Assembly (NCBI GenBank): GCA_030704615.1
Contig: CM060734.1
Location: 38,750,001 to 38,814,000, forward strand
Direction: 5' to 3'
Length of the DNA stretch: 64,000 bases
Source of the DNA: Takakia lepidozioides
Taxonomy: Eukaryota > Plantae > Bryophyta
In this document: positions 4,809 through 58,799 of the stretch, one piece after another
Layout of the letters: every line of letters begins with the position of its first letter
Position numbering within the stretch: position 1 is the stretch's first letter
Notes under the pieces: generated by a model
What the model saw: the letters and a program-made list of their open reading frames with translations, nothing else
Databases searched by the model: none
What the model was told of the DNA's origin: nothing
Program-made: the position numbers and the translations under genes

Positions 4809-7800
4809 TCAAAGGCCCCAAGGGCTTGTGACTTTGTGGTTTTGACACTGGACTGCTTGACCTGTCAAAAAGTGGTACCATCCATGGGGGACAACTAACA
4901 GAACCTTGCAAACCCAGGAAAGAGGAAGACATATGAGCAAGGAAAACAGCAGAGCCACAATCATTATGGCCCAGCCAAACAGGAACCCTGCCACTGGATA
5001 CAACGTCCACACCTTTTGTACAATTGGTAGCTCCATGGTAATCACTGCTCTTTCCAACGCTTCCCTGCAGCAAGCATGACCAGTTCACATGACAGACAAT
5101 AAACCTTACACGATGCCCTCAATGTCAAGTCCCGAAGGAAGGAAAAACGGAAGAAATGGGAAAGAGAAAGAAAGAAGCTTTTGTGATGTCTCAACGGGGT
5201 CTACGGTGCTACCCAAGGGTCTATTCAAGATTTTCCTCATCTCTCAAGCCCTTGCAAGTACATCTTCAAGAATGTAGACAGATCATATATAACTAGCTGG
5301 GAACAACAACATTCGTTTCACTTCATGATGTTGGTGTGACTACAGTAGATTCAACTTGTTGCTATAAAAAGGGAGAAGGTGCACACCTGTACTCCAGCAC
5401 ACGGTAAAATGGAGTGACAACACCACTGACACCAACAGAGGAGCAGCGCAGCAATGTGAAGCCATTCTCCACAGCCCGGAAGGAATCCGTGTCAAATAGC
5501 ATGCTTCCTCCTGGTCCCCATGTCCAACTTGGTTGAAGCATAATGTCAACCCTGTCCATCCCCCAATAACCGGCGTGATTAACATCAAGGATATCATATG
5601 CCTACTTCTCCAAAACATCTCACCATTCCAAGTCAGAACCTCCCAATTGCCTTCATGATACTTGTGCTGAAAATTTTCGTTGCGCAGTTAATAATATTGA
5701 CCCAATGGAAGGGGAGGAATGAACAGGAAGAAATGAACTTTACACTAGAAATGGTACTTTATAACATCTGTGGCTTAAAAGCGCAGAGAACTTATGGGAC
5801 AAGAGAAAAGAAAGAGAGAGGGGCCCCCCAAAAGCATCCCAAAACAACTATTATTCAAGGAGTCAACGCCTCATGTAGATATGCTGCTAAACATTTCTCA
5901 TCCTCTAATGGAAGACAGAAAGACACAGAAACTGCAGCCGGTCAAAGAGAGCAAGAGAGGTGGAGACAGACTCTCATTCAGACAGATCTGACACCTACCC
6001 CAGCCGTCCTGCCTGCTGAATCAAATCAGGGAATTCATAGTCAAAGCAAATGGCCCCTCCTATCCGTCCAAGATCTGTATCAACCACCTTCAACTCTCCA
6101 GGGCCAGGCATGATATCCGCCTCTACGAATGGGACAGGGTACGACTTTGTGTACTTGAATCCAACAGATCCATTTGGCAAAATCAACGAGAAGACATTGT
6201 GCGCTGCTGCACCCATAGGAGCCGAAGTGTTCAAATATTTGATATAAGAAATTCCCAAATATGGTCCAGATTGGGCAAATTTTCCCCCTGTCCTCTCATT
6301 GGCAACTGCTCTGGCTTGTCTTGAGTTACTCCCTTCCCTTGCAAGTTTTGCAGCTCTGAAAAGGAGCGCTGCTTCAGCCTCATCTCCTTGAACAATGGTT
6401 GCAATCTCAGACCACAAAATAAATGCATCTCCAGCTTCAATACGTGACTGTGTCTCATTCCAGAGGCTTGCACTACCCTCCTCTTCTTGCCTGCATTGCA
6501 GAAGTATAGAGATGAGCAAAAAGACATCAAGCAATGAATCCACCATTTGTATGCAAAAGGCAGTTTTGAATGGTTGGGTTCTTCTAGCATATCTTTAAGA
6601 TGAAAGCATAGATGAAATGCAGTGCTGTAAACAAAGTCTCAAACCAGTCAATTTGTGTATTTTCAGCTGGAATGGTGTCAATGACCAAATTCTGACAGTG
6701 CAGGCTTGCCGGAACCGACAAATCTGGCAGAAATTATCCACAAAGACATGACAAACATTTCTGAAAAATGTCATAGTAGCATCAGCCTAGCTTCCTCCAA
6801 TCAACCTGGCAACAGCAAGGTCGATGCACTTCAGGAGAGTGTCAGTGAAGAGCAATTGGGGGTGGATGCCTTCACCATCCACTGTTAGTCCCATTGAAGC
6901 AAATATCTGACGCTGAAATCTTTGGCAATTTCCCTGTTCTGGAATGCTGAGGTAAATAGTGGGCGAGTTGGAAAAACACCATCACAACAGAACAGAAGAC
7001 GCACAAATGACATCAGAGTCAATCCTGCTATATTTTGCTGGCAAAAGCTGGGATATGCATATTCTCAAATTTGTGCCTTTCAGAGTCAATCTCACCCGAG
7101 AATGCAGGAAGCTCCCACAGTGGGTTTCAAGGTCTCAGGGATTCCCTTCTGAAAGAAGCTCCCAGAAAACAACGCCACACTGCACCCTGTGTACAACAGC
7201 GCAAGCAAGAAGACTCCAGAAAAGGCTTTCAGGTGCAAGGTATGCTGTTGCCGTCCATTTCTTGCTTTATTTCTGATCTCCCCTAATAGATTCAAAGCCC
7301 TTGAGGAACTCTCTGCTTCTCGATATCCACATCCATCTGTCAAGACATTACAATGCAATCAAGTTGTGGGAGGGCACATGATGACCACTAGAAAAATCAG
7401 TAGCCATCCTGAAACACAAGAATTCAAACACAAAACTTGACTGAAACTTCTGAGAGCGCCTGCCAATTGAACAGTTTCTGGTGCACAGTCCTTAAAACTG
7501 AGGGTACTACTGGAGCGATGAAGTACCTGGAGCATGAGCTCCTATTTCTTCTTCCGAAAAATCAAAACCAACAGAGCAATTCTCCCCATCCTTCAAATTT
7601 CCGTATGGCCACTCTGCCCCTTCATCACTCGAGGCTTCTGGCTTGCTCTCTTCCATCCATAAAGAATAAGCACACCCTTTACTTGCTTCCATGCCTCGAG
7701 GGGCTTCGGAATCAGCTAAAACCAAGCTCCCATCTACAATTGCCGCCGCCCATGCCATCAGGAACACAACTCCATCCATGCCCCATATACTTATAGTCAG

Positions 7801-8283
7801 AACCAAGGCTTGGAAGTGTGCCTGCGAATAGGCTGGATTGCCCAAAGTCCCAAGTGGAGAAATGGAACCTTCCAGATGCCATAGAGCTGTCCAGATTGAC
7901 GGAAACACTAAGTACTGAGCCAGAGTCGCACCTCCAAACCTTTGCCTGTACATTGTGCTTGCAAAAAATGGAAAAGAGAGGATCGACCAGGCAATAAGAC
8001 TAACGAAGAAGACTGTAATCACCCCTCCGTATGTGAATGAAGGGTCGTTGAACATCCCAGCAAAAGCCACAGTGAAGCCCAGGGACTGAACCACAATTGT
8101 GAGCAGCAAAATCCATACTGCTCCAACCGACGTCTGGGCAGGAAATTGAACAACGTGCAAAAATCGGAGGAGAAATATAGGCTGGAGCCAAGACGTCACC
8201 ATAACCTGCTGGAACCCTCCCAGCCCCGTGCATAACGCCGATGCCCCCAGCAGCCCAGCAGCCTTCCATTTGCTCCCTCGCAT
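4809..8283 (-). CDS. Membrane-bound nitrilase-superfamily (CN-hydrolase) protein, apolipoprotein N-acyltransferase (Lnt)-like; 5 exons (8283-7527, 7336-7096, 6490-5999, 5551-5387, 5064-4809), ~636 aa
   Basis: N-terminal multi-pass hydrophobic ORF with an SPLGTLGNPAYSQ motif. Nitrilase catalytic triad in later exons: E (FILWSE), K (YTKSYPVPFVE), C (AICFDYEFP). RAVENG..R..S.G.S motif and a C-terminal TLY..G + TM helix, as in Lnt. All four introns are GT-AG and join in frame (1911 nt). The start ATG is uncertain. Confidence 0.82.
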
Positions 8284-8638
8284 CCCTACGTCCTCCAGGC
8301 TGTTGGAGAATGCCCGGGACCCACTCCGCAGATACAACTATGGAACACAGCGATCCGTTGAGAATAGAGCTTCCTTCAACACAAGTTGACCCCCAATTTA
8401 GATTTGAACCGGGTAAGTACAGTGTACAGCATAAAGTGATGCGTCAGGTGAATTATTTGGCCTGTCACACAACAGGCCAGAAATTCCAGCTTCTCGTTGT
8501 GAATCCAGTTTTTCCGATGACGATCGATGGCAGCTGTGTACGCATCTTTTCAACCATCATTGCCGTCTGCCCCTTTTTTCCAACTCTCCTGCAGCGTGAT
8601 TGCCATGGCTTCCAGTTCACATCGTAAAAACTTGTCAC

Positions 8639-8660
8639 CTCTCTCTCTCTCTCTCTCTCT
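8639..8660 (+). repeat. (CT)n microsatellite upstream of the Lnt-like gene
   Basis: Direct read: ctctctctct ctctctctct. Confidence 0.85.
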
Positions 8661-8779
8661 TTCTCTTCAATGTCTGTGGGGATATATTGTTTCTGGGTCT
8701 CTGTTTGGAACTCCCGTTGGCAGCGCTGCTGTTGAGCTCATGCTCTTCGCTTGGCTCGTTTGCGGGTTCACTGTTTCAT

Positions 8780-9110
8780 TAGGAATAATGCAAGAACTTA
8801 ATGCACACGTGCAACCTCTGACAGGATGGTACGCCGGTTTCGGACATGTCGAATTTTCCCCACCCTCTCTTGAGAGTGACATGGAACTGAAGGAGTGTAA
8901 ACTCCACTCGGGGTTACACTCGGTTACACGAGGAGGGTGTAACTCCACTCGGGGTTACATAGAATGGAGTGCAAGTCCACTGGGTGTAACTCACACTTGG
9001 TCTCAAAATTTGACGAAGTCCAAATTTGGCTAAGTATAAAATGGACCAACTAGAGTTACAGAGAGATCGGGGTTACAGAGGGTTACACTGATATACCCGG
9101 GTTACATTAC
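8780..9110 (+). mobile_element. Degenerate, truncated left end of a MULE related to the element at 9223
   Basis: taggaataatgcaagaacttaatgca matches the TIR core taggaataatgtaagaacttaatgca at 9232. It is followed by several GGGTTACA motifs (8910-9105). Confidence 0.7.
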
Positions 9111-9222
9111 AAGAGCCTCCCATCAAGAATCGAACCCGGAACCTTGCCGCATGCAAGGCTATCAGCTTATACTGACTCATGGCTGGATTTATCCCAGCTA
9201 AAATTCACGGGCCGCACGATAC

Positions 9223-9470
9223 GGAAGATAATAGGAATAATGTAAGAACTTAATGCAAGCGCGTCAGGACTGACACCCGTACCGCCGGTTCTTCGCCTCC
9301 GGCAGACATCGAAAGGCAGCCGGCTGGGCTCGGTCAATCCCTCCCCACCCCCGCCCTCATCCCATCGGCGTCGTCGCCCCCTGCGTCGTCATTCTGCGAC
9401 ACCAGTCCGCCGCTTCCAGCAGTCCGCCAGTTCCCTGTAACCCCCGCCCCGGGTTCAACCATCACCCCCA
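9223..9470 (+). repeat. Left terminal inverted repeat, unique GC-rich part
   Basis: Reverse complement of ~23805-24077, apart from a few substitutions and two short indels. Confidence 0.93.
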
Positions 9471-11610
9471 TGTAACCCTCTGTAACTCTGCCGAGTGTAA
9501 CCCACATTACCATGTAACCCTCTGTAACCCATATAACCCCATGACCCTCTGTAACCCTCACCACCATGTAACCCTCTGTAACCCATGTAACCCTCTATAA
9601 CACCGCAGAGTGTCACCCCCACCCCTATGTAACCCTCACTACATGTAACCCTCTGTAACCCATGTAACCCTCTATAACACCGTAGAGTGTCACACCCCTA
9701 TGTAACCCACTATGTAACCCTCACTACCCATGTAACCCTCTGTAACACTTTGCAACCCATGTAACCCTTTGTAACCCTCTGTAACACCGCAGAGTGTCGC
9801 CCTCACCCCTTATGTAACCCTCTGTAACCCATGTAACCCTCTGTAACACCGTAGAGTGTCGTCCTCACCCCTTATGTAACCCTCTGTAACCCATGTAACC
9901 CTCTGTGACCCTTTGTAACCCTCACCACCATGTAACCCTCTGTAACACCGCAGAGTGTCACCCTCACCCGTATGTAACCCTCACTCCATGTAACCCTCTC
10001 TGACCCTTTATAACCCTCACCACCATGTAACCCTCTGTAACCCATGTGACCCTCTATATCCCTCACCAGGTGTAACACCATGTAACCCTCTGTAACACCG
10101 CAGAGTGTCACCCTCGCCACCATGTAACCCTCCGTAACCCTCACAAACCCTTTGTGACACCGCAGAGTGTCGCCCTCACCCCTTATGTAACCCTCACTCC
10201 ATGTAACCCTCTGTAACCCATGTAACCCTCTGTGACCCTTTGTAACCCTCACCACCATGTAACCCTCTATAACACCGCAGAGTGTCACCCTCACCCCTAT
10301 GTAACCCTCATTCCATGTAACCCTCTCTGACACTCTGTAACCCATGTAACCCTCTGTGACCCTCTATATCCCTCACCAGGTGTAACCCTTACCACCATGT
10401 AACCCTTGTAACACCGCAGAGTGTCACCCTCGCCACCATGTAACCCTCCGTAACCCACACAAACCCTCTGTGACACCGCAGAGTGTCACCCTCATCCCCA
10501 TGTAACCCTCTGTGACCCTCCGTGGCTCTGTAACCCATGTAATCCTCTGTAACACCGTAGAGTGTCACCCTCACCCCTTATGTAACCCTCACTCCATGTA
10601 ACCCTCTGTAACCCATGTAACCCTCTGTGACCCTTTGTAACCCTCACCACCATGTAACCCTCTGTAACACCGCAGAGTGTCACCCTCACCCCTATGTAAT
10701 CCTCACTCCATGTAACCCTCTCTGACCCTCTGTAACTCTCTGTAACCCATGTAACCCTCTGTGACCCTCTATATCCCTCACTAGGTGTAACCCTTACCAC
10801 CATGTAACCCTCTGTAACACCGCAGAGTGTCACCCCCATCCCTATGCATCCCTCACTCCTTGTAACCCATGTAATCCTCTGTGACCCTGCGTAACCCGTG
10901 TAACCCTCTGTGACCCTGTGTAACCCATGTAACCCCATGTAACCCTCACTCCATGTAACCCTCTATAACCCATGTAACCCTCTGTGACCCTCTATAACCC
11001 TCACCAGGTGTAACCTTCACCACCATGTAACCCTCAGTAACCCTCTGTAACACCGTAGAGTGTCACCCTCACCCCTGTGTAACCTCACTCCATGTAACCC
11101 TATGTGACCCTCTGTGACTCTCTGTAACCCTCACCACCATGTAACCCTCCGTAACCCGTTTATCCCTCTGTAACACCGCTGAGTGTAACCCTCACTCCAT
11201 GTAATCCTCCCATGTAACCCTATGTCACCCTCTGTAACCCATGTAACCCCATGACCCTCTGTAACCCTTTGTAACCCATGTAACCCTCTGTTACTCCGCG
11301 AGGTGTAACCCTCACTCCATGTTATCCTGCATCGTGTAACCCCAATGTAAGCTTGTATCATGTTATCCCATATACCCCTCTCCGTGTAACTCCAGTTCCT
11401 CGTAACCCCATCATCCCTGTAACCCTCTGCACGTCAGCGCTTTAGCTCCGCCTCGTGTAACCCTCATTGTGCAACTCTCACATTGTAACCCCACCATGTA
11501 AACCCGATACTGTATCAATCCCCCCCGTGTAACCCCCGATTGTGTCACTCATAGCTCGTGTCACCCCGGATCCTTTATCCCCAACGCATGTCACCCCTGT
11601 TCGTGTAGCC
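9470..11610 (+). repeat. Left subterminal tandem array of TGTAACCC/TGTCACCC telomere-like motifs with a recurring higher-order unit (TAACACCGCAGAGTGTCACCCTCACC)
   Basis: Direct read: dense, nearly continuous tgtaaccc motifs over ~2.1 kb, degrading toward 11600. Confidence 0.93.
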
Positions 11611-11829
11611 CCTTAGTGCCCGGCAAAAATTGGCGGGCTCCAAGAGGTGTCAGATATTTTGAATTCAAACCTGGGTTACACGATTCGGTGACATCAAAAC
11701 CCACGTGTAACTCCATCATCGCTCGTCATTTTCACCAGGTGCGTAGACGACGTGCAGTCCCGAGGGCTCCGCTGCGTTGCCCGCGTGTGTTATGCGATTT
11801 GTACTGTACTGGTGGTACTGTTGCTGCTA

Positions 11830-14800
11830 ATGGCATGTGCTGCCGCGAAGGTGCTAGACGAGGAACGCAAAGCAGCATTGGAATCAAATGGTTTGAAAGA
11901 TGAGGCGGGAGAACTCTGTCATTTGCAGCATTTGGTATCTCATTTGAAATGCATCCTACAGCTGCCCATAGACGGGCTTTTCAATCACACAAACCTCCGT
12001 TGGATACGCCAGGTTTCCCAGGGAAAAGGGAAACGGATATCCATCGAAGTAGCTGTCGTTCCATGGTCTCGCATTCCTGACTTTCTGGAGGGAGAAAGGA
12101 GTAGAGTGGATGGGAAGACCCAATTTTATGTTCAAGATCGAAGGTACCGTGAGTTGCCAGATTTGACAACACCGCGTGCAAACAGTTATCGTCAGTGGCA
12201 TAAGTAAGTCACTTATGAGGGTTGTATAACATTCCCAGCCCCACTTCTTTCTGCTAGTCTAGCAAAGTCGTATATGGCGATAACCCTCCTCGCTTTATAT
12301 GCTTTTTTTGCAGGTACCACTGCTGCTACGGCCCGATAGATAGGCGCACGGACCCGCCGATTGTGAAGAAGAAAGAAAAACCGATAGCAGCCTCCGATAA
12401 TCAAACAGCAGTCAAGCGAATCAGACGTAAGGCAGCGGATTTCGGAGAGTCATACAAACGTGGGTGTACGTGTAGCTTCAAAGTTGGCCAGTGTTTTCTA
12501 GATTCAGAGTTGGCAATCATCACATACTTCCAGAAACAGCATGTGGATGCAAAAGGAAAGCCATGTCATGGTTCAGCTGACCCCTCTTCCCATTTCTCGC
12601 GATTCGTGCATGCCCCTCGTCTCAGCCAAGATATGAAACAGTGGATCGTCGATAGTCTTCGCAGTGGCCTATCTCCAGCTATGATTATGACACAACACAC
12701 TCAACAACTCCAGGAAGCTTGTGCGTCTCAGCCAGGCATGGAGTGGAGTCGCGATTGTTTCTTGTTCGAGTACGACGTGAGAAACATTGCCGACAAGCTT
12801 GCGATTGAGAGTTACAAAAAACATCCAGATGATGCACAAAGTGTACGTATGTGGGTCGATAGCAATCCTGAAAGCGTCTTCTTCTACCATGAAGAGACAG
12901 CGCCAGTGGCGGGTGATTTGAAGTTCGTAATTGGAATACAAACGGAGTGGCAAAAACAGAAAATGATCGACCTGGGACACAACCGTGTGGTATCCTGCGA
13001 TGCAACATTTGGGACCAACGAAAATAAGGTATTCGTGTCACGCTTTACCTTTCATTGCATTCTGAAATGTGAGTGCCATGCAACTGTTGCCAATATTATA
13101 ACGCTCACCTTATTCATTTTTGTACCATTGCGACATTGCAGTTCCCAATGTATACCATGATGGTGTTCGACGAATGGCTCAACGGCATACCTGTTGCTTA
13201 TATTATATCAGCGAGAAACAAAACGACTGACTTGAGCCCCTGGATGAAACGTCTTCGCGACCGACTTCTTCAGAGCAAACCAGATTGGAGGCCAAATGCT
13301 TTTGTTGTCGACGATGCAGACGCAGAAATCAATGCTATCAGGTACACGGCTAGAAGTTACAATGTTCTGAGTCACACTACAAGTTGCATGCACGAGGGGT
13401 TTCATGGATCGGGCTACACTGCTGCTAGTTACACTGAGAATCACAGTAAGAGTTAAACTGCCAGTTACACGAGGGGGTGCATTGCTGCCTGTAACACTTG
13501 GAGTTACACTGTCAGTTGCTCGAGGGGTTACATGGATTGGGTTGCAGTGCTGTCTATTACACTGAGGGTTACACTATCAGTTAGACAGATGGTTATACTG
13601 CCTTGAGTTGGACGGAGGGTTACACTGCTGTGAGTTAGACCGAGGGTTATACTACTGTGAGTTAGACCGAGGGTTACACTGCTATGAGGTAGACAGAGGG
13701 TTACACTGCGAGTTACACTGGGAGTTACACGGCGTGTCATCCGCAGTCCTACATGGATTAGGTTGCACTGCTATAGCATGTGAGTTACACTGGGAGCATC
13801 GCAGAGGGTTGTATGGGTTGGGTCGCTCTGAGAGTTACACGGTGTAACATGGATTGCGTTACAGCGCTGCGAGGGGTTATATGTGTTGGGTTACACTGCT
13901 GTGAGTTTCACTGATAGTTACATGACCAGATGCACGAGGGGTTACATGAGTCACACTACTAAGAGTGACACTTTGAAGAGTTACACTTCTACGAGTTACA
14001 CTGCGAAGAGTTCCTCTGATAAGAGTTACACTGACAAGAGTTACACTGATGGATTGGGTGGCATTTGATGTGTGTGCGTGCAGGGAATCGTTTGGGGACG
14101 TAGCAATATTTCTATGCCTTTGGCATGTTCGCCGCGCTTGGCTGAAACATTCGTGGCGTAAGATGCCCGATCCATACACTCGCAATGCTGTTTTGAAACA
14201 GCTTGGCGACGTAATGTACGGCATTAACGCCTGTGTGGGAGTCACCCCAGAAGAGTGGGCGCTGGAGCGACTGGAAGATTTGAATTATTCCTATCCGCTT
14301 GCGCGTGACTTCCTACGTTACATCAGAATGGAATGGGTCCCAAAACTGAGCATGTGGATCACGGGGGCTCGTTATATTCCCCACGCAAGTCAGGATACTA
14401 ATGCCGCAATTGAATCTTGGCACGGAAATTTGAAGGCTCGTTTACGCTCGGGAAAGCAAAGGCTTGATGGCAGGAGAATCGATTGGCTGATCAGCGAACT
14501 CGTGGGTCCTGTTCTAACCCACTATTGGTATAGAGATAACTTGAAATCGAAAGGCTTCAAAAGGAATGTACGACAGGAGGAATTTATCAGTAATGTTGTT
14601 TGGACTGCAAGGGAGATCCCTGATGTCAATGTTCATTTGCCCACTGTTCCTGGTCATCCGGCGATTGTGGATAGTGTTCAAACGGCCGGTCGAAGCTACA
14701 CAATCTATGCACCTGCGACCACCTGGGCTTGTTGCGATTGTCCATGGGCTTTGAAGGGTAACTTGTGCAAACATCAAATCCGCGTTCTTCAATTGATGAA

Positions 14801-15230
14801 GCCAAATCTGAAGGAAGGGCTTATTGTGAAGCTCTGTGGCACAAAGCTCGGGACCATTCATGGAGGTCTTCACATGTTGATGAAATCGGAACTTCCAGAT
14901 ATTGATGCAGAGGAGGAAGTTGTGAATCTAGCAGAGCCTACGGAGTGCTCAGCATCATCCCGGCGTGGTCGGCAGGAGCCATCGGATGTTTCATCAATTG
15001 AATCTGAGATGAAGTCCCTGTCGCTTCTTGGCAATGAGAGTGAAACAATGCGCAAACATTTGCTTGCCGAGCTTCGTTGTGTTCGTGGGAGGCTGTCCAC
15101 TTTACAAGTTAGAATCGACAAAGGTCTGTTGCACCCTCTTCAAGCAGTTCCATTCATAAAAAATGATGATGGAAACAACATGTCCCTTGCCAGGAAAGTA
15201 GATTTTGTAGACCGGTTCCGTAGTAAGTGA
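11830..15230 (+). CDS. MULE DDE transposase with SWIM zinc finger; 4 exons (11830-12203, 12314-13028, 13142-13341, 14084-15230), ~811 aa
   Basis: Motifs KRGCTCSF, D1 (SCDATFGTN), D2 (VVDDADAE), CxxH (CLWHVRRAW), E (TNAAIESWH) and SWIM (CDC..GNLCKH). GT-AG introns give a continuous 2436-nt frame with no stops seen. The start codon is tentative. Confidence 0.9.
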
Positions 15231-16189
15231 CCATTGAGTCCATTGGCAATGACACTTACTTTGTGATCACCCTTCAATACAGAGTGGGAAGATGTTGAAG
15301 TCGAGCACCTTTAGTCATCAACACTAGCCCCTGTATGTGTAACCCCTCTATGTGTAACCCAATTTGTGTGTAACCCATGGACGTGTAATCCATGAGATAG
15401 ATAATCATTCCGTTCAACCTATGTTATGGACCAGTGTAGCCCTCCGGAGTGTAACTTGTTGTTGTGTAACCCCAAGAAGTATGTATCCCGACCACATGTA
15501 ACCCCCATTGATGTCACCCCATCGCATGTAACCCATTGTACAATTTGGGGTGCACGCTATAAACCCCGATGCTACATCACCCCATCTTATGTATCCCCAC
15601 GACACGTAGCCCTTGTATAGGCAACCCTGCCCACTTTCATTGTGCACAGTGTAACTTAGAACTGTGTAACCCTCTTGAGTGAGTGTAACCCAGAGTGTTG
15701 TAACTCCAAGAAGTATGTAGCCCGACCAGATGTTACCCCCACACTATTGTGACCCCATCGTATGTAACCCATTGTACATAGCCCTCATGTATGTAACCCC
15801 ATGTAGTATAAATCTGAGAACTTCAGTGCACAAACACTTCAGTGCGAAAAAAAAAAAAAAAAAAACAAATGCGCATAGTCGAGGTGGGGTTACATGCCAC
15901 GAAAGTATACTGTTTCAGCAACGTGACCCTGACATAGCCAGGTATGTAACCCATAAGTGTAACCCCACGTTGTGAGACCCGGCATGGTGTAACCCATCAC
16001 TTATGTGTGAACCCACAGAGTGTAAGCCCATTGCCCCAGGGCCCAAAGGTGTACCCAAGTACTTGTCTATGATTCCACTTCATGTAACCTTATAAGGTGT
16101 AACCCCATGTAAGCCCATTGCATGAAACCCAAACTGTGAAGTGTTACGAACAAACCACATAGAAGCAAAAATGCATCAAGAGACGCTAT

Positions 16190-19100
16190 TTATTTCTTTG
16201 GCCATCTGACCAAGTCTTTGTCCATCTCGTCACACAGCCAACTAATCATATGAGTACGGGAAGCTATCATGGTTGACTCGTTGAACCAACTTGCAGTAAA
16301 CGCCCGCCTATGACGGGTTCGATCTTCTGTGGTTTTCACATTGAACTTCCACTCCAAGTAAAATTGCACAAAACAAAGTGCATAATAGCCGCACTCCCAA
16401 CAGCTCCGTTGTTGGGGGACACTGGCCTCAAACCATTCCATCCTCTCCATGACGTAACTGAAGTCATCAGATCCAGGCATGAAATCAAAGAACGCTATGG
16501 CAAAATTTCGCAAAATTCCTTCAATGAGTTTGGGTCGGGCAATGGTTTTATGGGAGTCCAAATGTACTATCCGACCTCGGCGCTCTAAAACAGCAACACT
16601 CCAGTGATCACTGCAACACAAACAAAGCCGTTACGTCAGAATAGAAAAAAACATCTCCAATGAAACCCATTGTGGTGTAACCCTTTGTACTGTAACTCTA
16701 AACGGTGTTACACAACTAGTCAGCAGTCACTAGTGCAACTCAGTCTAGAATAGAGGAGTGTAACCCAACATGCTCAGTCAATGCTGAAATTACTTACTCG
16801 AAGACAATAGGGATGACAACCACGTCCACAAGATCTCGATTCTTTGTGAACACCATCCCTCGGGCATCCTGAGTGTACCATTCTTGCACCAACCCGAATA
16901 GCGTCTGCAGATCGTTACCATTGGTACGCATGACATGCCATTGAAAAGGAGCACAGATGACAAACTCAGGTGCGATAGCCTTAAACAATTTGGCCTCCAG
17001 AAGTTTGTTGTAACCCGAGAGCAATGCATCTGTGACAGTTGCTCTTATTTTATACATCGGCTCAAAATCTGTCTCTTCCAAGTAAAACTGTAACGGACTA
17101 GAAGCCAGGAAGGCATCGCCATAATAAAACTTCACTTCGGGCGCCCCAGGAGGGTCCGACACCATTCTGAACTTTGTCAAGTACCGTTGTTTTAGTCTGC
17201 ACAACAAACCGCACATTACGAACATTACGATGCATCATACAAGAGTTATAATCAATATTCAAAATCAGAGAGGATCAAAGTACAATGAGGTACCTCGAAC
17301 GCTCCCGCAAGTGCTTGGCAAGGACCTCTTTGCTGGACAACGTCAACCTCCGAGACCCCTGCACTTTTGCCTTTCGGTTTGGTTCGCTGTTTTTTGGGTG
17401 CGACAAGAACAGATACTTCTTTGTCAGCGCTAGGGGGTTCAGCCAACCGCTTTCTTTGAGCAGGCGGCCGTTTTGACCTCCTGGGATTCTCTGCAACCCT
17501 GACAATGCCGCCGGTAGGGGGAATTTCTGAGCCAGAGGTGCCTTGTTCTGAGTTTGCTGCAAGTGCTGAAGACTGCACTCCCTCGTCTGAGACGTGCTGG
17601 GGAGGTGATTGACCAAGGGCAGAAGTGTCACAGCTCACCTCCTCGGTGCTACCCCTGTCAGTGTAACCCTTCTGTTCAAACCCCTTGTCACGCTTCTTAG
17701 TGTCACCCTTCTCTTCGGCTACCTCCTCAGTGTCACGATTCTCAGTGTCACCCTTCTCTTCGGCTTCCTTCTCAATGTCACCCTTCTCTTCGGCTACCTC
17801 CTCAGTGTCACTCTTCTTAGTGTCACCCTTCTCTTCAGCTACCTCCTCAGAGTCACGCATCTCAGTGTCGCCCTTCTCTCCGGCTACCTTCTCAGTGTCA
17901 CCCTTCTCTTTGGCCGCATTATCAGTGTCACTCTTCGCAGTGTCACCCTTCTCATCGGGTTCCTTCCCAGTGTCACTCTGCTGAGTAACAATCTTATGTG
18001 TGTCACCCTTGGCAGTGTCACTCTTCTCAGTGTCTAGATGCTCCGCAACATCCTTCTCTTCGTGACTCTCCACAGTGAAACGCTTCTCAGTGTGACCCTG
18101 CTTTGTGTCACCCTTCCAACTGACAACCTCCTCGGTGACACCCTTCCCCGTGTCACCCATGTCGATGTCACTCTTCTTTGCATCAACCTCCTCAATGCCA
18201 TCCTTGATTGTGTCGCCCTTCTCCGCACCCTCCAAGACCATGTTGACTAGCAGAAGACCGTCATCCGTCGCGACTAGTGGCCGTGGCAAAGGAGTGTCAC
18301 CTTCCACGACTAGTGGTAGTGGAATGTCATCCATGACAGTGTTACACTCACTGACATCTACCATGTGGGTTGGCTGTGGGGTGTCACCCCTATCAGTGTA
18401 ACCCATGTCAATGTCACTCTCAACGGAAGTTGCAGTGTTCACGGGCAATGGTGTGTCACCCACGACAATGTCCCTCACGACATTGTCAGCCACACCGGTA
18501 TCCGTAGTGTCACCTTGAGGTGCAGTGTAACCCTCCTTCCCTGTTGCTCCTCTCTGCACAGTGTCACCCTGAGGTGCAGTGTAACCCTCCTTCCCTGTTG
18601 CTCCTCTCTGCACAGTGTCACCCTGAGGTGCAGTGTAACCCTCCTTCCTCTGTTGCTCCTCTCTGCACAGTGTCACCCTCAGGTGCAGTGTAACCCTCGG
18701 TTTCAGGGCATCCTCCCCTTGCAGAGTCACCCTGCGCATCAATGGGACCCACGAAGGCTGGGTCATTCTGAGAGAGGTTGACCACATGATCCTGACAAAT
18801 ACTTACATTGCTGCATCGAGGGTTCAACCCAGCATCTCCAGATTCAAAGTCATACACAGACTCTGGGTCAAGCGGGTCCCCGATTCTTCGATTAAGACCT
18901 TCAAAAGAAATGACTGGGGCTGCGGACAAAGAGGTTCGCACTTGGGTGTTCCACCTTGATGTATCATCTTCAGTATCAGTATCAGAAATCATGGGCAAAT
19001 CCCGCGTCAAGTCTGCTAGGTTCACCCCTAAGTGCAGCTGGGTTGAGTACAATTCACCAACCTGCGACAAAGATACAACGGCAGATTGACTTGGAATGAT

Positions 19101-21712
19101 GTCCTCGTCATGTACATCGTCGCTCTGCGGGGCGGAAATTGGCCCATCGCTCGTCTGCGCGCCCCCTACGCCCCCTGTATCGCATTGTGGAGGGGCCCCA
19201 TACACAACTTCGTGAAGCTCACGTTGAGCCTCAAAAAGGTTTTTGAACGCATTGGCGACTTGATTGGTCATGAGCTCGGACTCATCTGCATCGGGGAAAA
19301 GACAAAGGTTTTTAGTCGTGGAACGAGGTTTTTGAAAGTGCAAGGGTTACACTATGTAAGGGTTACACTGACTAGGACAAGACAGTGGTTCGGATTACAC
19401 GATATGGGTTACACCACCCTGTTAGAGACAGTAGTTTGCAATGGGTTACACTACCATGGGTTACACTACTGAGATTACACAACGAGAGGGTAACAAATCT
19501 AGGGTAACACAGCGAGGGGTACCATTAGGGGTACACTGATTACAGGGTTACATACTCCGAGGGTTACACTGATTTACACACAGCGAGGGTTACACTGAGT
19601 ACAAGGTTCCACATAGCCGAGGGTTACACTGATTACAGGGTTACACACAACGAGGGTTACACTGAGTTACAAGGTTCCACATAGCGAGGGTTACAATGAT
19701 TACAAGATTACACACAAAGGGGTTACACGACGAGAGGGGTGACAGTGGATGGAGTAACACTTACAGAGATACCAAGGCACTACAGACCCAAGGTCTCTCA
19801 TATACTGGATGCCCAAACGCGCATTGAAGTCCATTTCTGTTGGTGATTCGCTGAAGAGGCCACAACACCAAAGCTGGATAAACGATTCTCTCTGTTGGAT
19901 CGCAAAGTGATGGGCGGCGCGACGACGGCTTGCCTTGCAAAACTGTATAGCTCCGTTGATCTTAATTGACCGGTCACCCCACTCTTCTGTACTCAAACTC
20001 GATCTTAAGTCTTCGAGCTCAGAATCCAAGGTCGCAATTCCGTCACCAGGTTGTGCAAAGTACATCAGACTAAAGCCGTAATACTCATCGACCAGGTCCT
20101 TCACCTTTGAGGCCGTAAGAGCACTTTCCAGAAGTTCAGTCGTGAACCCCAACCTGGGATGCGTTTGGGAAACTGACCTGCCATGATTTCTACATCGTTG
20201 TGGGCTAGAATTCTCAAAAGGAGTGGTGGCGGTCCAATGTGCGGTTTGGTGAGATTCTCCATTTGACTGATCAATCCTTCGGCAAAACCACGAGTGAATT
20301 CCAACGGATGTGGAACAACCAAACCTTTGATTCCATCTACAGTAATAGTGATGACAAGAGGATTTGAAGTTCTGGCATCGTCAAGGTCGGTATTGCCAAC
20401 AGCTAGTTCGTCCATCGTGTCATCATCATGTGAGGCTTGGCTCTCTCGATGGACTCGTGTAAGTCTCCCACCTTTTTTCTTTTTCTGCTTTGGCATGTCA
20501 GGATGCCCAATGCTCTCTAAATACTCCTTCACCCGATTCAATTCCTCTATCATTAACGGACATGATCCGGCTGGGCAGTAAACGCCTTGTGGGCAGCAAC
20601 AACACTGTCCATATCATCGCTTCTAAGATGATATCGAGCTCCCTGCGCAATACAGCGTGAGGGTTACACCAAAGAAAAAGGTTACAGCACGAGGGGTTAC
20701 ACATGAAAATGGGTTACAAACAAGATGGGCTACACGGGGTTACACAGAGGTGGGTTACACACCATAGGGGTTTTTAAAAGGGGTCCTCCGTAGGTGGGTT
20801 ACACTCTGGGTTACACGCCACAGGAGAGACAGGGGGGGTAACACAAGGGGTTACATGGATAGACAACAGCCCAAAATTTGAAAAACAGAGAAATGGCAGG
20901 GAATCCAACTTGATTGTCTGTCGATAGAACCCAACTTGATTTTGCAGCTGTCGCATGGACTGCGCCCTCGCCTCGCGCAACAAATTCTTGGAATGCCGGC
21001 CAAAACCCCTTCTCATTGACATTCGGAAATGGGAACTGAGGAATAAGGCCATGCGGTAGCAGAAGGATTGAGCCTGGAGTTCTCTTTCGCAAGATGAACC
21101 TTGAGCTCCGGTTTCCCCGGTTTCCAATGTTGATTTTCTTTGCAATAGGGACAGGTAGAGGCGGGCTCAATCGCCGCTTGTCTCTCTCGTTAGAAACCTG
21201 CCGAATAGAAGGACCAGGGACAGAAACAGCAGGAGCACTAGAAGATGGAACCTCTGTAGCAGAAATAGCCGAAGAAGGTACAACAGCAGGCACTTCAATA
21301 GGATCTGCAATCTCCCCAAAGCCACCCTATTTTGCAGAATCCATGCATGATATGCATCAACAGAAGAAGCTCGAACATAATTCATCACATTTTCAACAGC
21401 CATGGCATGCTTGAGCTCCGCATCAGGAAACGGTTTTGTTCCTTTCGGTCTGGCCATACATGCGGCCGTTCCATCGACAATATGCCGATTCAATCTGCTC
21501 TTATCTACCTTTACTGCCCCACAATAAGGACATTTGAACTTAGGCCGGCCCTTTGCTCCCTCCACCTTGGCCTCTCTACACCTAGTGTGGCAGTACGCGA
21601 TCATTGTAGCATACTCATGCTCAGTGTACCAAAAGCGAACTCGTTCGCCATCCCTTTTCAAGTGATCAAATGGAATAGTGGCCTCTCCAGGGAACAAATA
21701 ACAATCAGCCAT
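16190..21712 (-). pseudogene. MULE-borne multi-exon gene: N-terminal CxxC..H zinc-finger-like motif, long acidic repeat region, C-terminal Ulp1/C48-type cysteine protease; apparent frameshifts
   Basis: The last exon has the C48 catalytic set H (SDHWSVAV), D (VHLDS) and Q/C (VPQQRSCWECGYY). The preceding exon ends in VVVIPIVFE with a GTAAGT donor. The 5' exon has CPYCGAVKVDKSRLNRH. There is a 1-bp insertion at ~18649 and a probable frameshift near 20150. Joining all ORF pieces into one gene is inference. Confidence 0.7.
17630..18700 (-). repeat. Coding tandem repeats inside the Ulp1-like gene (EEVAEEKGDT-like units; 54-bp EGYTAPQGDTVQRGATGK units)
   Basis: Visible in ORF 17252..18787 and in the DNA as repeated agtgtcacccttctct motifs and 54-bp units at ~18509-18700. 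Confidence 0.88.
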
Positions 21713-23034
21713 GACAAAAGAAAAAGCTGACAGAAGAGAAGAGAAGAGCAAGAGCAAGAAAAGACAAGACAAGAAAAGACCAAGACCAAGAGAATTCCGA
21801 AGAACGCACAACAGGGAGCACGCACAACAAGAAGTGCAGGAAGAATATGAAGGCTGCGAGAAGGGGAAAACTGAACAATGATCAAAGAACGAAGAACGAA
21901 GCTAGCTAGATGTCACCCGTAAGGCACGTCGGTTAAGCGAAAGACGGCGGTTCATTAAAATCTGGCGGCTTGCAATCAATTATATCCGCACTGACTCACA
22001 CGTGTATGAGTTGCAATCCCGGTGTCACCCGGAATAGCGGAGTGTAACCCGTAACCCTACACTTGTGAGCGCGACAAACCGGCCGTTACTCGAATGCCAG
22101 GCACGTCGAGTGTAACCCTCCGTCAGGTACCCAGATATGATGTAACCCTTCGTCACAACCTCATGTACCCCTAGTCTATGTGACTCCCGAACACAACATC
22201 GATGTAACCCTGTCATATCAAACCATTAGTATGCAACCTCCAGGTAAACATGGTCAATGTAATGCCCCACCCATGTAACCCTAGCCTATGTGGCTCCGCG
22301 AGTGCAACATCCACGTAACCCATCAAACATGTCAACCCCATCTAAACCTCCATTACTAAACCGTCTACCAAGCTAGCATGTATTGAGAAAGAAAACACCG
22401 TGTAACCCCTTGTGTGTAACCATACCACACGTGAGGTAGTCATATAAACCATCAGACATGTAACCGGTTGACAGTGCTTGCAAAACACGCATGATTCGAT
22501 ACGTATTGCATCCATAATAGCGATGAGTAGGCTGCCCCGGCTGGTGTGTGAACAAAAGATACACGAGAGGAGAGTGAATGGGCACCCCGTCAAATGAGCG
22601 GCTGCTTGCATGGCTAGACCGAAAGAAACAAAACCCTTTCCTAATGCGGATCTTAGGAATACCATAGCCATCGGGGACGGTGACAAAACAACAAGAATGA
22701 CATTGAGAAAGAAAAAGAATAGAGACAACCGTATCAATCGTAGAGAAAACCGTGGTAATAAATTTGACGGATCGTTGCGCTGAAAGCGTTGTCTTGTATG
22801 TTGCTGGGATGACGATACTGAACTGAATGAACTACAAATCTTTCACATTGATGTGTGAAGCCGATTGGGCACCATGGGAATTGCAGAAAGCTGATGCCCC
22901 AAAGCAAAAAAACGAGCGAGCTAAGAATCTGGAAACGGATGGAGAGAGCAAATTAGGGTTTCGGCCTCTATTTAAACCTCCATTCGGCCGTCGGATAGTT
23001 TACACGTGTATGATGTACACGAGGCGGTGTTACT

Positions 23035-23805
23035 GAGGGTTACATGGTGGTGAGGGTTACAGAGGGTCAGAGAGGGTTACATGGAGTGAGGGTTACATAC
23101 GGGTGAGGGTGACACTCTGCGGTGTTACAGAGGGTTACATGGTGGTGAGGGTTACAAAGGGTCACAGAGGGTTACATGGGTTACAGAGGGTTACATAAGG
23201 GGTGAGGACGACACTCTACGGTGTTATAGAGGGTTACATAGGTTACAGAGCCACAGAGGGTTTGTGAGGGTTACATGGAGTGAGGGTTACATGGTGGCGA
23301 GGGTGACACTTTGCGGTGTTACAGAGGGTTACATGGAGGTAAGGGTTACACCTGGTGAGGGATATAGAGGGTCACAGAGGGTTACATGGAGTGAGGGTTA
23401 CATGGTGGTGAGGGTTACAGAGGGTCAGAGAGGGTTACATGGAATGAGGGTTACATACGGGTGAGGGTGACACTCTGCGGTGTTACAGAGGGTTACATGG
23501 TGGTGAGGGTTACATGGGTTACAGAGGGTTACATGGAGTGAGGGTTACATAAGGGTGAGGGCGACACTCTGCGGTGTTACAAAGGGTTACATAGGGTTAC
23601 ATGGGTTGCAAAGTGTTACAGAGGGTTACATGTAGTGAGGGTTACATAGGGGTGGGGGTGACACTCTGCGGTGTTATAGAGGGTTACATGGGTTACAGAG
23701 GGTTACATGGTGGTGAGGGTTACAGAGGGTCATGGGGTTATATGGGTTACAGAGGGTTACATGGTAATGTGGGTTACACTCGGCGGAGTTACAGAGGGTT
23801 ACATG
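23035..23805 (+). repeat. Right subterminal GGGTTACA tandem array, inverted relative to the left array
   Basis: Dense gggttaca motifs with the unit GGGTGACACTCTGCGGTGTTACAGAG, the reverse complement of the left-array unit. Confidence 0.93.
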
Positions 23806-24077
23806 GGGGTGATGGTTGAACCCGGGCGGGGGCTACAGGGAACTGGCGGACTGCTGGAAGCGGCGGACTGGTGTCGCAGAACGACGACGCAGGGGGCGAC
23901 GACGCGCCTGGGGCGACGACGCCGATGGGATGAGGGCGGGGGTGGGGAGGGATTGACCGAGCCCAGCCGGCTGCCTTTCGATGTCTGCCGGAGGCGAAGA
24001 ACCGGCGGTACGGGTGTCAGGGCTGGACCGTCCTGACGTGCTTGCATTAAGTTCTTACATTATTCCTATTATCTTCC
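23805..24077 (-). repeat. Right terminal inverted repeat
   Basis: Reverse complement of 9223-9470, followed by TSD gcacgatac. Confidence 0.93.
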
Positions 24078-25925
24078 GCACGATACCCCTTTTATTGGCC
24101 CTCCCCCCAGGCAGGACTACTCGAGTATTGTAGTGGGGCAGGTAGCCCAGTGGATGGGAGTTTGTATGCATAACCAAGGTGGACTAGGGTTCAAATATCC
24201 GTCTTCCAATAGTTCCTAGTTAGTCTGTCGGATGAAGAGGCACCATAGATACGCCTTACTTCGGATCTTGAGAGTAGACTGATCGCTCGCAGCCTTTGCT
24301 GGCTCTCTCTTAACTTCAGACATAGCTCCTAATTTGTCTAAATCATCTAGAGCTTCTTTTTCAAGCATGGCACTTGTGAAGACCGACATCGTGATGAGAA
24401 GTAATGAAACGTTGTTTGTGGATCACATATACAGCTTCCCCAAGCGACTATAGAGTACCCCACGCTCGGTCTTCAGCCAAAAGTGACGCCTTTTTCAGAA
24501 TGAGGGCCGCTTTATACTAGGGCCCAAGCCTTGGGCCATCCTCAACGGTCATGATCAAACAGTCATGATCACACAAAAGTAGTCTATTTTAATACCAAAC
24601 TTCTTGGGCCCAAGAGCTCAGAGTTGGGTCTCCATTCTAGGAGGGTTCCTTTTTCTTGGTCCGGCCCAACAAGTTGAAGTTTGCACCAAAATTTGTGCCA
24701 TGTAGGCAAATACTCACTTCCATTTTCTTGGGCTCGGGCCGTAGTGTAAAGCCGTTGGGCCCAATTTTCAGGCCTCCGCCAATGGGAATGCTCCATTCTC
24801 ACTTGGTCTTGGGCCCTAGAAGCGGCCCCAAGTTAGAGTGTGCATGGGATAACACTCAACAATGGCCGGGTTACACATGCCTACTTTCTCTTTCCCAAAC
24901 AGCCCTTGCACTTTGTGTTGCTGCTATTTCCTTGGTACCTTGGTAGGTATGATTTAACTCCAACTCAAAGAGGGGCAGTTGGAATGCGATCGTGACAATC
25001 CTAATAAGCACCGGATCAAGGAAACTCACCCTCCCTCCCCAAAGTGCTTCTCTGTTACTGACCCATCAACTGGCTAAATTTTTGTCACACCCATGGCAGC
25101 ACTTACTTACCACTTGATTTCCCAGGCGGCTAGACATCAACGAGGCTGCCAAAAACTCTGTCATTCTTCTCATGAACGTTGGATGCAAGGTGTCCTAGAG
25201 TGTGTGCACGAGACAGTGTCAATTGACCCCATAACCTTGCGCGCAGCAGAGACGACCCAGTTGCACCGATTTGAGTGTAACTCGAATTCGACTCCAGACC
25301 TGCTCCTCCTCCTAGTAGTCCTCCTCGATGTGGGAAATGCAGAAATCAAGTCTGAGCCATAAACTCTCACAAGAGGGGGGTAACGACGTAACGACCAGTG
25401 TTGGGCGGGTATAGATCATCATGATTCACGGGACACATTCACGGGGCAGACTCGATTGTGTGTAAGTATCTTATTATTTGAACAAATCGCAATTTTAATT
25501 GGAGGGGTGGCGAAACAGAAATGGCGATGGGGTGGTCTGTTCCCGCCCGCGCGCAAGAGCGAGAACACGAGAGAGACAGAGAGAGTTGTGGATTGAAGGA
25601 GTTGAGAAAATCAAGAAAGAAAGACGTCAATTACGTCGACAGAGAACAGAAAGAAAACACAGGAACTCCTTGGGTAGTGAAGAGGAAAGGATTTCTTGGA
25701 GAATGATGATGGCTGGCTGGCGCGGACTCCGCCTGTCTCATGCTCCACCGATGGGAGGGGGAGGGCAATTATGCTTCAAGGTTATGAGATGCAGGAGTGG
25801 TTGTTTCATGCTCCGACATTATAGAAGTTGTATTCTCTCTGTCGCATAGAAGGGGTGCTTTATAAGTTTCCGATATAGGCCGACAGTTGAGCTGAATTTC
25901 GTTTCCTGGAATAATAGATAATGGG

Positions 25926-58400: not shown

Positions 58401-58799
58401 GGTAGGAGACGAATCCTTTGATTGCTAGATAGCAACCTCTTGGGCCTTGTCCGCCCAATCTGACTATGGCGTAGCCTCCACTTGTTCCGCCATAGCCACC
58501 TTAGAACATCCTCTGAGCAAGAAACATTCTCAACCTCTTCAAAAACCTTGGTCACCTTAGCCTCCAACTGATCCTCAGTCCATGGCTCTCCCCACTCCTC
58601 ATACTGCTGTTTGAGAGATCCAATGACTCTCTCTTTGCGTATCTCATCCCACATCTGCCATGGGTGTTTGCAACCCACGATCCTGTGCTCGCCCCCCACT
58701 CACTGCCTCAAATCGTCCCGGTTGGCAGGGAAGATGCACCATCCAATGGGAGTGCAGAAGTAGCCATCAATGCTTGCAATCTTCGTTGCTCATCCATGC

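What the first reader, a model, noticed from the sequence alone, without database searches (positions are those of the whole stretch)
9470..23805. Transposon arms built from telomere-like repeats in true chromosome-end polarity
Seen: the left arm has ~2.1 kb of C-rich TGTAACCC motifs and the right arm ~0.8 kb of G-rich GGGTTACA motifs on the + strand. The core GGGTTA is a permutation of the TTAGGG telomere repeat, and C-rich-left/G-rich-right is the orientation of real telomeres, so an excised element would resemble a mini linear chromosome. The closely spaced GGG runs could form G-quadruplexes. Established: Foldback-type elements have modular repeat arms that bind transposase. Inference: the arrays may be transposase landing pads and/or recruit telomere-repeat-binding Myb proteins.
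Basis: partly seen in the sequence, partly recalled or inferred. Interest (0 to 1): 0.7.

Follow-up and report, generated by a model that had tools for sequence, protein, structure and literature searches.

The report
Mutator foldback transposon, not telomere mimic
This is a 14.9-kb cut-and-paste transposon of a seed-free plant whose arms and introns are packed with one short DNA word that likely serves as a landing site for the transposon's own protein, and whose likeness to telomeres is probably chance.

Summary
The arrays are real, and their strand polarity is as described. The telomere reading is not supported. The element is a Mutator-like (MULE) transposon at 9223-24077 with a 9-bp target duplication. 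It has an intact 811-aa transposase and a convergent zinc-finger/Ulp1 gene. The arms hold no TTAGGG or CCCTAA, and the arrays start over 200 bp inside the tips. Opposite polarity is forced by any inverted repeat, so only its direction (1 in 2) carries information. The same motif (TGT[A/C/G]ACCC) fills inner introns and spacers in both orientations: 74 sites in 4.3 kb, against 2 in 5.4 kb of ordinary exons. Relatives with 42-50% identical transposases keep the GTTACA core but lose the GGG (GG before the core: 4 of 76, against 177 of 232 here). An AT-rich sister group uses ATGTTTC. The motif is therefore most likely a family-specific site for an element-encoded protein, probably the transposase. 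What remains of interest is that the motif layout and the Ulp1-fused accessory gene parallel the VANDAL/VANC-KIU anti-silencing system of flowering plants, with no detected VANC homology. Binding and anti-silencing were not tested.

The parts
9214..9222 (.). Left target-site duplication, 9 bp (GCACGATAC)
   Evidence: Identical to 24078-24086
9223..9435 (+). Outer left TIR: AT-rich tip (GGAAGATAATAGG...) then a GC-rich spacer, no motif
   Evidence: In run X4, 47 contigs have loose, mutually unlike ends before 9223 (agreement 0.39); also 7 in X5, 3 in X1, 3 in X7
9436..11713 (+). Left inner arm: array of TGT[A/C/G]ACCC-type motifs, 127 of 129 on the C strand
11830..15230 (+). MULE transposase gene, 4 exons (11830-12203, 12314-13028, 13142-13341, 14084-15230), 811 aa, no internal stop; DATF / DDA / CLWH / IESWH motifs and a SWIM finger
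   Evidence: GT-AG introns, open frame, 30-38% identity to P0001-P0016
13369..14045 (+). Motif cluster filling transposase intron 3 (742 bp), 19 of 20 on the G strand
15338..16105 (+). Motif cluster between the 3' ends of the two genes, 17 of 18 on the C strand
16190..21712 (-). Accessory gene (exon model inferred; may be more than one gene): N-terminal C-x2-C-x12-H-x7-C finger, low-complexity middle, C-terminal Ulp1-type protease domain. Frame breaks in this copy near 21310-21323 and about 18620-18800
   Evidence: Peptidase_C48 E 1e-4, 22.7 bits against a cut-off of 20.7. Zinc-finger families all below cut-off. P0017 is 96-98% identical and reads through in one frame where the window needs two
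17625..18696 (-). Motif expanded in frame inside the accessory gene's large exon (Gly-Asp-Thr / Gly-Tyr-Thr repeats)
   Evidence: 29 sites, 25 of 27 counted in one codon phase; 15- and 54-bp tandem units
19344..19744 (+). Motif cluster in an inferred intron of the accessory gene, 15 of 15 on the G strand
20661..20855 (+). Motif cluster in an inferred intron of the accessory gene, 8 of 8 on the G strand
21911..22408 (+). Motif cluster upstream of the accessory gene, 9 of 9 on the C strand (opposite to the right arm beside it)
23037..23803 (+). Right inner arm: 48 of 48 motifs on the G strand; a shorter version of the left array
23804..24077 (-). Outer right TIR and tip (...CCTATTATCTTCC)
24078..24086 (.). 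Right target-site duplication, 9 bp
8771..9160 (+). Neighbouring short non-coding relative with a decayed copy of the same tip and the same motif, mostly on the G strand (7 of 9); no right end found
   Evidence: Tip 27 of 31 identical. Loose ends before 8780 read ...GGAAGATAA, and summed contig depth is high over 8768-9157

Best explanation
This is a young Mutator-like DNA transposon with foldback-type arms, and its repeated word TGT[A/C/G]ACCC is likely a family-specific binding site for an element-encoded protein, most likely the transposase. Shown: the ends, the 9-bp duplication, an open transposase frame, the accessory zinc-finger/Ulp1 gene, the motif layout, and the drift of the motif among relatives. 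Inferred mechanism: the N-terminal WRKY/GCM1-like domain of the transposase reads the GT(T/G/C)ACA core. The dense arm arrays would load many transposase molecules and raise pairing and excision of the ends, while the conserved AT-rich tip marks the cut. The same sites in introns and spacers, spread by local tandem duplication, would let the protein keep its own family transcriptionally open. The GGG run is a lineage-specific flank of the core; its likeness to GGGTTA and its moderate G4 potential are probably by-products.
For: MULE identity: PF10551 in 13 of 17 aligned members and SWIM in 16 of 17; 9-bp TSD; open 811-aa frame. Motif density per kb: arms 57, inner non-coding 17.3 (74 in 4271 bp), transposase exons 0.41, non-repeat accessory exons 0.34, host 0.35; binomial p 5e-24. 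Relatives: GTTACA is enriched in 6 of 6 loci of the closest group (L001-L005, L043; z 4.6-9.8), and ATGTTTC in 7 of 7 tested AT-rich loci (z 4.4-16.8). Neither is enriched in 8 tested loci outside that clade (highest z 2.6). GGGTTA is at or below z 2.2 in all 25 loci tested. GG precedes the core in 177 of 232 cases here and 4 of 76 in L001-L005/L043. In L003, 22 of 23 cores are non-coding (p 8e-9, exon limits set by me). The N-terminal part of fern homologue P0003 is nearest to CaRF/ALS2CR8, GCM, ZSWIM3_N, FAR1 and AFT clusters. MULE DNA-binding domains share the WRKY-GCM1 fold (PMC1702500, start of abstract). Yeast Aft1/2 read ANTGCACCC / BRCACCCB (PMC4161868, passages), one letter from TGTCACCC. 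Muta1 subterminal repeats raise binding and excision (PMC5499845, passages). AtMu1 transposase alone binds its TIRs and hypomethylates them (bioRxiv 10.64898/2026.08.24.746577, outline and section 7).
Against: No binding was shown. The fold of the window's own exon 2 was poor (pLDDT 53) and matched nothing; the atlas lead comes from a homologue 34% identical, and only 4 of its 10 best family hits agree. In Muta1 a lone subterminal repeat did not bind without the terminal motif, and AtMu1 peaks are at TIRs rather than introns, so inner clusters fit a VANC-like accessory protein at least as well. Four loci inside the clade show weak or no enrichment (L006, L007, L017, L040). The relatives' motifs were chosen after seeing k-mer counts, and the enriched loci form about two independent groups. 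Complete arms of relatives were not recovered, so their arm motifs are unknown. The tree is the quick one, midpoint-rooted.
Confidence: 0.7

Rival explanations
1. The reader of the motif is the accessory zinc-finger/Ulp1 protein, acting like VANC/KIU: it binds same-direction motif clusters in introns, spacers and ends and removes silencing marks from its own family. This is a variant of the best explanation that differs in which protein binds.
For: VANC21 sites lie in introns, intergenic and terminal non-coding regions as dense same-orientation tandem arrays, and VANC proteins carry tandem repeats in variable regions (PMC5735166, passages); both are seen here. KIU proteins are VANC-Ulp1 fusions with the same behaviour (review PMC13317346, passages). 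L003 also has a convergent second gene with an N-terminal C-x2-C-x12-H-x4-C finger (13 of 40 identical, pairwise E 7e-4). 3 of 4 substitutions between the arms are CpG transitions, which fits a methylated history.
Against: The accessory-gene pieces scanned gave no Pfam hit to a VANC-associated family (DUF1985/DUF287 as VANC domains are recalled). It has one finger only, below Pfam cut-offs. No finger or Ulp1 gene was found near the AT-rich relatives, which are enriched for their motif but look decayed (49 of 62 listed ORFs scanned). L003's second gene has no Ulp1 hit. This copy of the gene is frame-broken. VANDALs are described as non-TIR MULEs, whereas this element has kilobase arms.
Confidence: 0.3
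2. One reading: the arms mimic telomeres, recruit TRB/TRF-like Myb proteins or fold into G-quadruplexes, and cap an excised linear copy.
For: Polarity is as in chromosomes. AGGGTTA lies within the commonest unit. Only 0.7% of 8-mers hold six letters of a TTAGGG array. There are 14 canonical G4 patterns in the arms and none in 40 kb of host DNA. TRBs bind short interstitial telo-boxes and other motifs (PMC12616469, passages). L003's arm holds a true TTTAGGG at 54 and 8783, and GGGTTTA is above expectation in L006 (4 vs 0.4), L017 and L002 (2 each).
Against: 0 TTAGGG/TTTAGGG in either arm. The tips are motif-free, so an excised copy would not end in repeats. Inner clusters and the neighbouring relative face either way. 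The GGG is not conserved in relatives, and the position that varies here (A/C/G) lies inside the supposed GGGTTA while the flanking ACA is nearly fixed. The host is a seed-free land plant, and all bryophytes examined use TTTAGGG (PMC10856949, passages), of which the arms hold only 3 AAACCCT and no AAACCCTA. Real telomere-bearing transposons start with the exact host repeat (PMC4724952, passages).
Confidence: 0.07
3. The arrays are neutral slippage products or scars of nested relatives, with no bound protein.
For: Tandem units of many periods, unequal arms, and a related short element directly beside it show that the motif spreads mechanically.
Against: Slippage does not explain one fixed core under varying spacers in nine separate clusters and both orientations, its near absence from ordinary exons, or the same core in the non-coding parts of elements only 42-50% identical in protein.
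Confidence: 0.1

Closest known systems
Mutator/Foldback elements: Muta1 (Aedes aegypti), Tm1 (Meloidogyne, Phantom-like)
   Same: MULE transposase, 9-bp TSD, a distinct terminal motif plus subterminal tandem repeats, and arms of unequal repeat number (PMC5499845 and PMC3169594, passages).
   Different: Arms are far longer (about 2.5 and 1.05 kb against 145 bp in Muta1). The motif also fills introns and spacers. A zinc-finger/Ulp1 gene is carried.
VANDAL elements with VANC / KIU (Kaonashi) anti-silencing proteins (Arabidopsis, eudicots)
   Same: A MULE with an accessory gene ending in a Ulp1 domain; short family-specific motifs in dense same-direction arrays in introns, intergenic and terminal regions; motifs differ between related families; tandem repeats inside the accessory protein.
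   Different: Long TIRs instead of non-TIR ends, a seed-free host, a single zinc finger and no detected VANC-type domain. Demethylation is untested.
Flowering-plant 'SWIM-type domain' host proteins (P0004-P0012, P0014, P0016) and Adiantum MULE proteins (P0001-P0003)
   Same: 30-38% identical over more than 600 residues; same domain order.
   Different: They fall outside the clade of this element in the quick tree. The loci of that group show no motif enrichment. That they are domesticated single-copy genes is recalled, not tested.
Telomere-bearing elements (TBE, Oxytricha)
   Same: A DNA transposon whose TIR is C-rich on the left and G-rich on the right, with extra ORFs.
   Different: TBE is Tc1/mariner with a 3-bp ANT duplication, and its TIRs begin with the exact host repeat CA4C4A4C4. 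Here the tips lack the motif and no host-type repeat is present.

Membership tests
Mutator-like elements (MULE) | 8-11 bp target-site duplication | tested here: met
   9 bp, identical on both sides; range from PMC6446971 passages
Mutator-like elements (MULE) | MULE-type DDE transposase | tested here: met
   Homologues carry PF10551/PF21056; DATF, DDA, CLWH, IESWH and SWIM in an open frame. The window's separate exons gave only SWIM, just under its cut-off
Mutator-like elements (MULE) | Long terminal inverted repeats | tested here: met
Mutator-like elements (MULE) | Dispersed copies with the same ends | tested here: met
   47 contigs with unlike flanks at 9223 in X4; this shows the tip is dispersed, not how many full-length copies exist
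Foldback-type TIR (type 2) | Arms made of subterminal tandem repeats, variable in number between ends | tested here: met
Foldback-type TIR (type 2) | Repeats promote transposase binding and excision | not testable with these tools
   Needs EMSA and an excision assay
VANDAL / VANC-KIU system | Short motif in dense same-orientation arrays in introns, intergenic and terminal regions | tested here: met
   against PMC5735166 passages
VANDAL / VANC-KIU system | Accessory protein homologous to VANC | tested here: not met
   No such Pfam hit on the pieces scanned; no relative for one Ulp1-proximal exon. No direct comparison with a VANC sequence or structure was made
VANDAL / VANC-KIU system | Ulp1 domain in the accessory gene (KIU type) | tested here: met
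   Peptidase_C48 above cut-off; His, Asp, Gln and Cys residues visible in the ORF
VANDAL / VANC-KIU system | Non-TIR or degenerate ends | tested here: not met
   Arms 99% alike over the outer 418 aligned bases
VANDAL / VANC-KIU system | Sequence-specific loss of DNA methylation | not testable with these tools
   Needs transgenic methylomes
Telomere-bearing transposons (TBE type) | Exact host telomere repeat at the tips of the TIR | tested here: not met
   No TTAGGG/TTTAGGG in the arms, tips motif-free. The host's own repeat was not determined
Telomere-bearing transposons (TBE type) | Telomere-protein binding or subtelomeric location | not testable with these tools
   No genome held; the window is gene-rich with no telomere array

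The most novel reading that the evidence does not exclude
Seed-free plants have a Mutator clade that evolved its own sequence-specific anti-silencing system, independent of VANC. An element-encoded protein (the zinc-finger/Ulp1 fusion, or the transposase itself) reads a short motif that each family multiplies through its arms, introns and even a coding exon. The motif drifts between families around a GT(T)(A/T)CA core. A Ulp1 protease fused to a different DNA-reading domain would be a convergent copy of KIU.
Probability: 0.3. Interest if true: 0.7.

Novelty: new variant of a known kind. Interest (0 to 1): 0.4.

Why it matters
As a telomere mimic it does not stand. As a Mutator element it is useful: young, with an intact transposase and a dispersed tip family, so it could still be mobile in a seed-free plant. 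If the intronic motif arrays mark an anti-silencing system, the VANC/KIU strategy known from flowering plants arose at least twice. The matched pairs of protein and motif (this element, L003, the AT-rich group) would then give a direct test of how a transposon protein and its target word co-evolve, and of what transposon-borne Ulp1 domains are for.

Tried and rejected
No whole genome is held, so copy number, chromosomal position and the host telomere repeat could not be read. An exact scan of metagenome contigs with 24 bases of the tip found nothing. No RNA holder was listed for the inner element; this is no evidence on expression. Read coverage of the inner element was not obtained, so the number of full-length copies, the splice sites and whether the frame breaks are real remain open. 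The AlphaFold model of transposase exon 2 (17 sequences) had pLDDT 53 and no Foldseek match under E 0.001; it was not used. An atlas search with the finger exon gave unnamed and generic C2H2 clusters, with recognition below the tool's bar. A homologue search with one accessory-gene exon found none. tblastn of eight accessory-gene pieces against 54 loci found no hit at E 1e-3. DNA folding of 23500-23840 showed no unusual stability (z 0.46; G4 not modelled). The careful tree did not finish; the quick tree used 44 of 55 rows (11 dropped for under 300 residues) plus 7 proteins. A paper search for TGTAACCC / GGGTTACA / transposon gave 137 papers with at least two terms; I saw 15 titles and abstract starts, none describing this motif in a transposon. 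Sasaki et al. 2022 on KIU is not held, so it is cited through a review only. Three look-ups in earlier findings were empty. A 7-bp TSD with a C-starting TIR fits the letters equally; it was rejected because most loose ends fall at 9223 and 9 bp is the MULE norm. bioRxiv supplements were closed; those of the AtMu1 preprint may show whether transposases bind inner sites.
Full report
Verdict. The arrays belong to a Mutator-like transposon with foldback-type arms. The motif is most likely a binding site for the element's own protein. The telomere likeness fails most tests I could run.

Anatomy. A 9-bp duplication flanks them. The left limit is supported by contigs of public runs: in X4, 47 contigs have loose ends before 9223 that do not agree with each other (0.39), and the summed contig depth rises from 53 on the flank to 4-8 x 10^4 on the tip. 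The tool warns that this depth is no copy number, X4 and X5 are one sample, and it may be the window's own source. Over the outer 418 aligned bases the arms differ by 4 substitutions, 3 of them CpG transitions, and 3 indels, which fits a recent insertion with a methylated past (inference).

Genes. On the plus strand four exons with GT-AG introns give 811 residues without a stop, with the DATF, DDA, CLWH and IESWH motifs and a SWIM finger. The protein is 30-38% identical to 16 database proteins, 13 of which hit the MULE family. On the minus strand a convergent gene starts at 21712 with a single C-x2-C-x12-H-x7-C finger (Pfam hits below cut-off) and ends in a Ulp1-type domain (above cut-off). 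Its exon model is my inference. P0017, 96-98% identical, reads through in one frame where the window needs two, so another copy or allele exists and this one is broken or mis-assembled there. The host is a seed-free land plant: a neighbouring gene's best named near-full-length hits are a clubmoss (90%) and a moss (87%), and a PPR-DYW gene lies nearby.

The observation. Counts and polarity are confirmed (81 and 36 exact copies; 177 against 2.3 expected). The arms contain no TTAGGG or TTTAGGG, the cores repeat every 9-10 or 15-17 bases, and the position that varies lies inside the supposed GGGTTA while TGT and AC are nearly fixed. The tips have no motif. An inverted repeat must show opposite strands at its two ends, so 'true polarity' is one of two possible outcomes. 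Their G4 score is still far below real telomere arrays.

The motif fills transposase intron 3, the spacer between the genes, three inferred introns and the upstream region of the accessory gene. Each cluster faces one way, and different clusters face different ways. Density is 17.3 per kb in inner non-coding DNA against 0.4 in ordinary exons and 0.35 in host DNA. It has also expanded in frame inside one exon. A short relative next door, with the same tip, carries it mostly on the G strand behind its left end.

Relatives. A scan with a transposase alignment gave 54 loci. In a quick tree (44 of 55 rows kept, plus 7 proteins) the window's protein groups with 23 of them at SH-aLRT 99. I tested 25 loci chosen to reduce redundancy. 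L001-L005 and L043 are enriched for GTTACA (6 of 6), mostly preceded by AT or AC, and by GG in only 4 of 76. Seven AT-rich loci are enriched for ATGTTTC (7 of 7; L008 was not in the tree). L006, L007, L017 and L040 are weak or negative, and eight loci outside the clade are negative. GGGTTA is enriched in none; GGGTTACA reaches z 3.5 only in L034 (2 copies). L003 has inverted ends, a convergent second gene with a similar finger, and 22 of 23 cores outside coding DNA. Caveats: motifs were picked after seeing the counts, the enriched loci form about two independent groups, and full arms were not recovered. L003's arm does hold one true TTTAGGG per side, and L006 has four GGGTTTA, so telo-box use by relatives is not excluded.

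Mechanism. Shown: the layout and its conservation pattern. Established elsewhere: Muta1 subterminal repeats raise binding, cleavage and excision (PMC5499845, passages); AtMu1 transposase binds its TIRs and lowers their methylation (bioRxiv 10.64898/2026.08.24.746577, section 7); VANC proteins bind short motifs arrayed in introns, intergenic and terminal regions (PMC5735166 and PMC10398659, passages); KIU fuses VANC to Ulp1 (PMC13317346, passages). Inferred: an element protein reads the core (0.7 overall for this reading as stated). I favour the transposase, because the enrichment follows the transposase clade, a fern homologue's N-terminus resembles CaRF/GCM/FAR1/AFT domains (a lead only), and Aft proteins read TGCACCC (PMC4161868, passages). 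The accessory protein is the main alternative reader (0.3, overlapping with the best explanation). Telomere mimicry gets 0.07 and neutral expansion 0.1.

Comparison and novelty. It meets every MULE and foldback feature I could test. It works like a VANDAL/KIU element in motif layout and Ulp1 cargo but is not a member: it has long TIRs and no detected VANC homology. It is not a telomere-bearing element in the TBE sense (PMC4724952, passages). All bryophytes examined use TTTAGGG (PMC10856949, passages); the host's repeat was not determined. My one search for the motif in print (15 of 137 listings seen) showed no description of it, which is a weak negative. I rate it a new variant of a known kind, interest 0.4. 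The boldest reading left open is a convergent anti-silencing system in seed-free plants (probability 0.3, interest 0.7 if true).

Noticed in passing
window 8771-9160: Short non-coding relative sharing the tip and the motif, with very high summed contig depth and no right end found; the large element sits about 60 bp beyond it.
   Followed up: partly
window 22478-22672 (+): Decayed inverted duplicate of the accessory gene's finger exon (38% to P0017 residues 38-106, E 3e-8, with a stop) between that gene and the right arm.
   Followed up: partly
window 55800-63300 (-): RT and integrase pieces, a 706-aa frame with a protease-like LLDSGA stretch (my reading) and a C5 DNA-methylase domain (E 5e-11), then a SWIM-bearing frame unrelated to this transposase. 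Possibly a retroelement carrying a methylase beside another transposon remnant.
   Followed up: no
window 5998-8337 (-): Apolipoprotein N-acyltransferase-like gene (weak LNT_N and CN_hydrolase hits), a bacterial-type gene in a plant; RNA-guess contigs of X7 cover 8300-8708.
   Followed up: no
L003 1-8842: Near-complete related element: inverted ends (130 bp, 99%), transposase, a convergent finger gene without a Ulp1 hit, and a TTTAGGG in each arm.
   Followed up: partly
L008, L010-L016, L034, L037, L042, L048-L050: In these AT-rich relatives the gap at the position of transposase intron 3 is also long (about 410-930 bp), and ATGTTTC-type words are among the top words there or just downstream.
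   Followed up: partly
window 51780-52711 and 61220-61342: A 472-bp tandem duplication (79%) and a short GCGTGAGCGTACGCTCACGC-type repeat.
   Followed up: no
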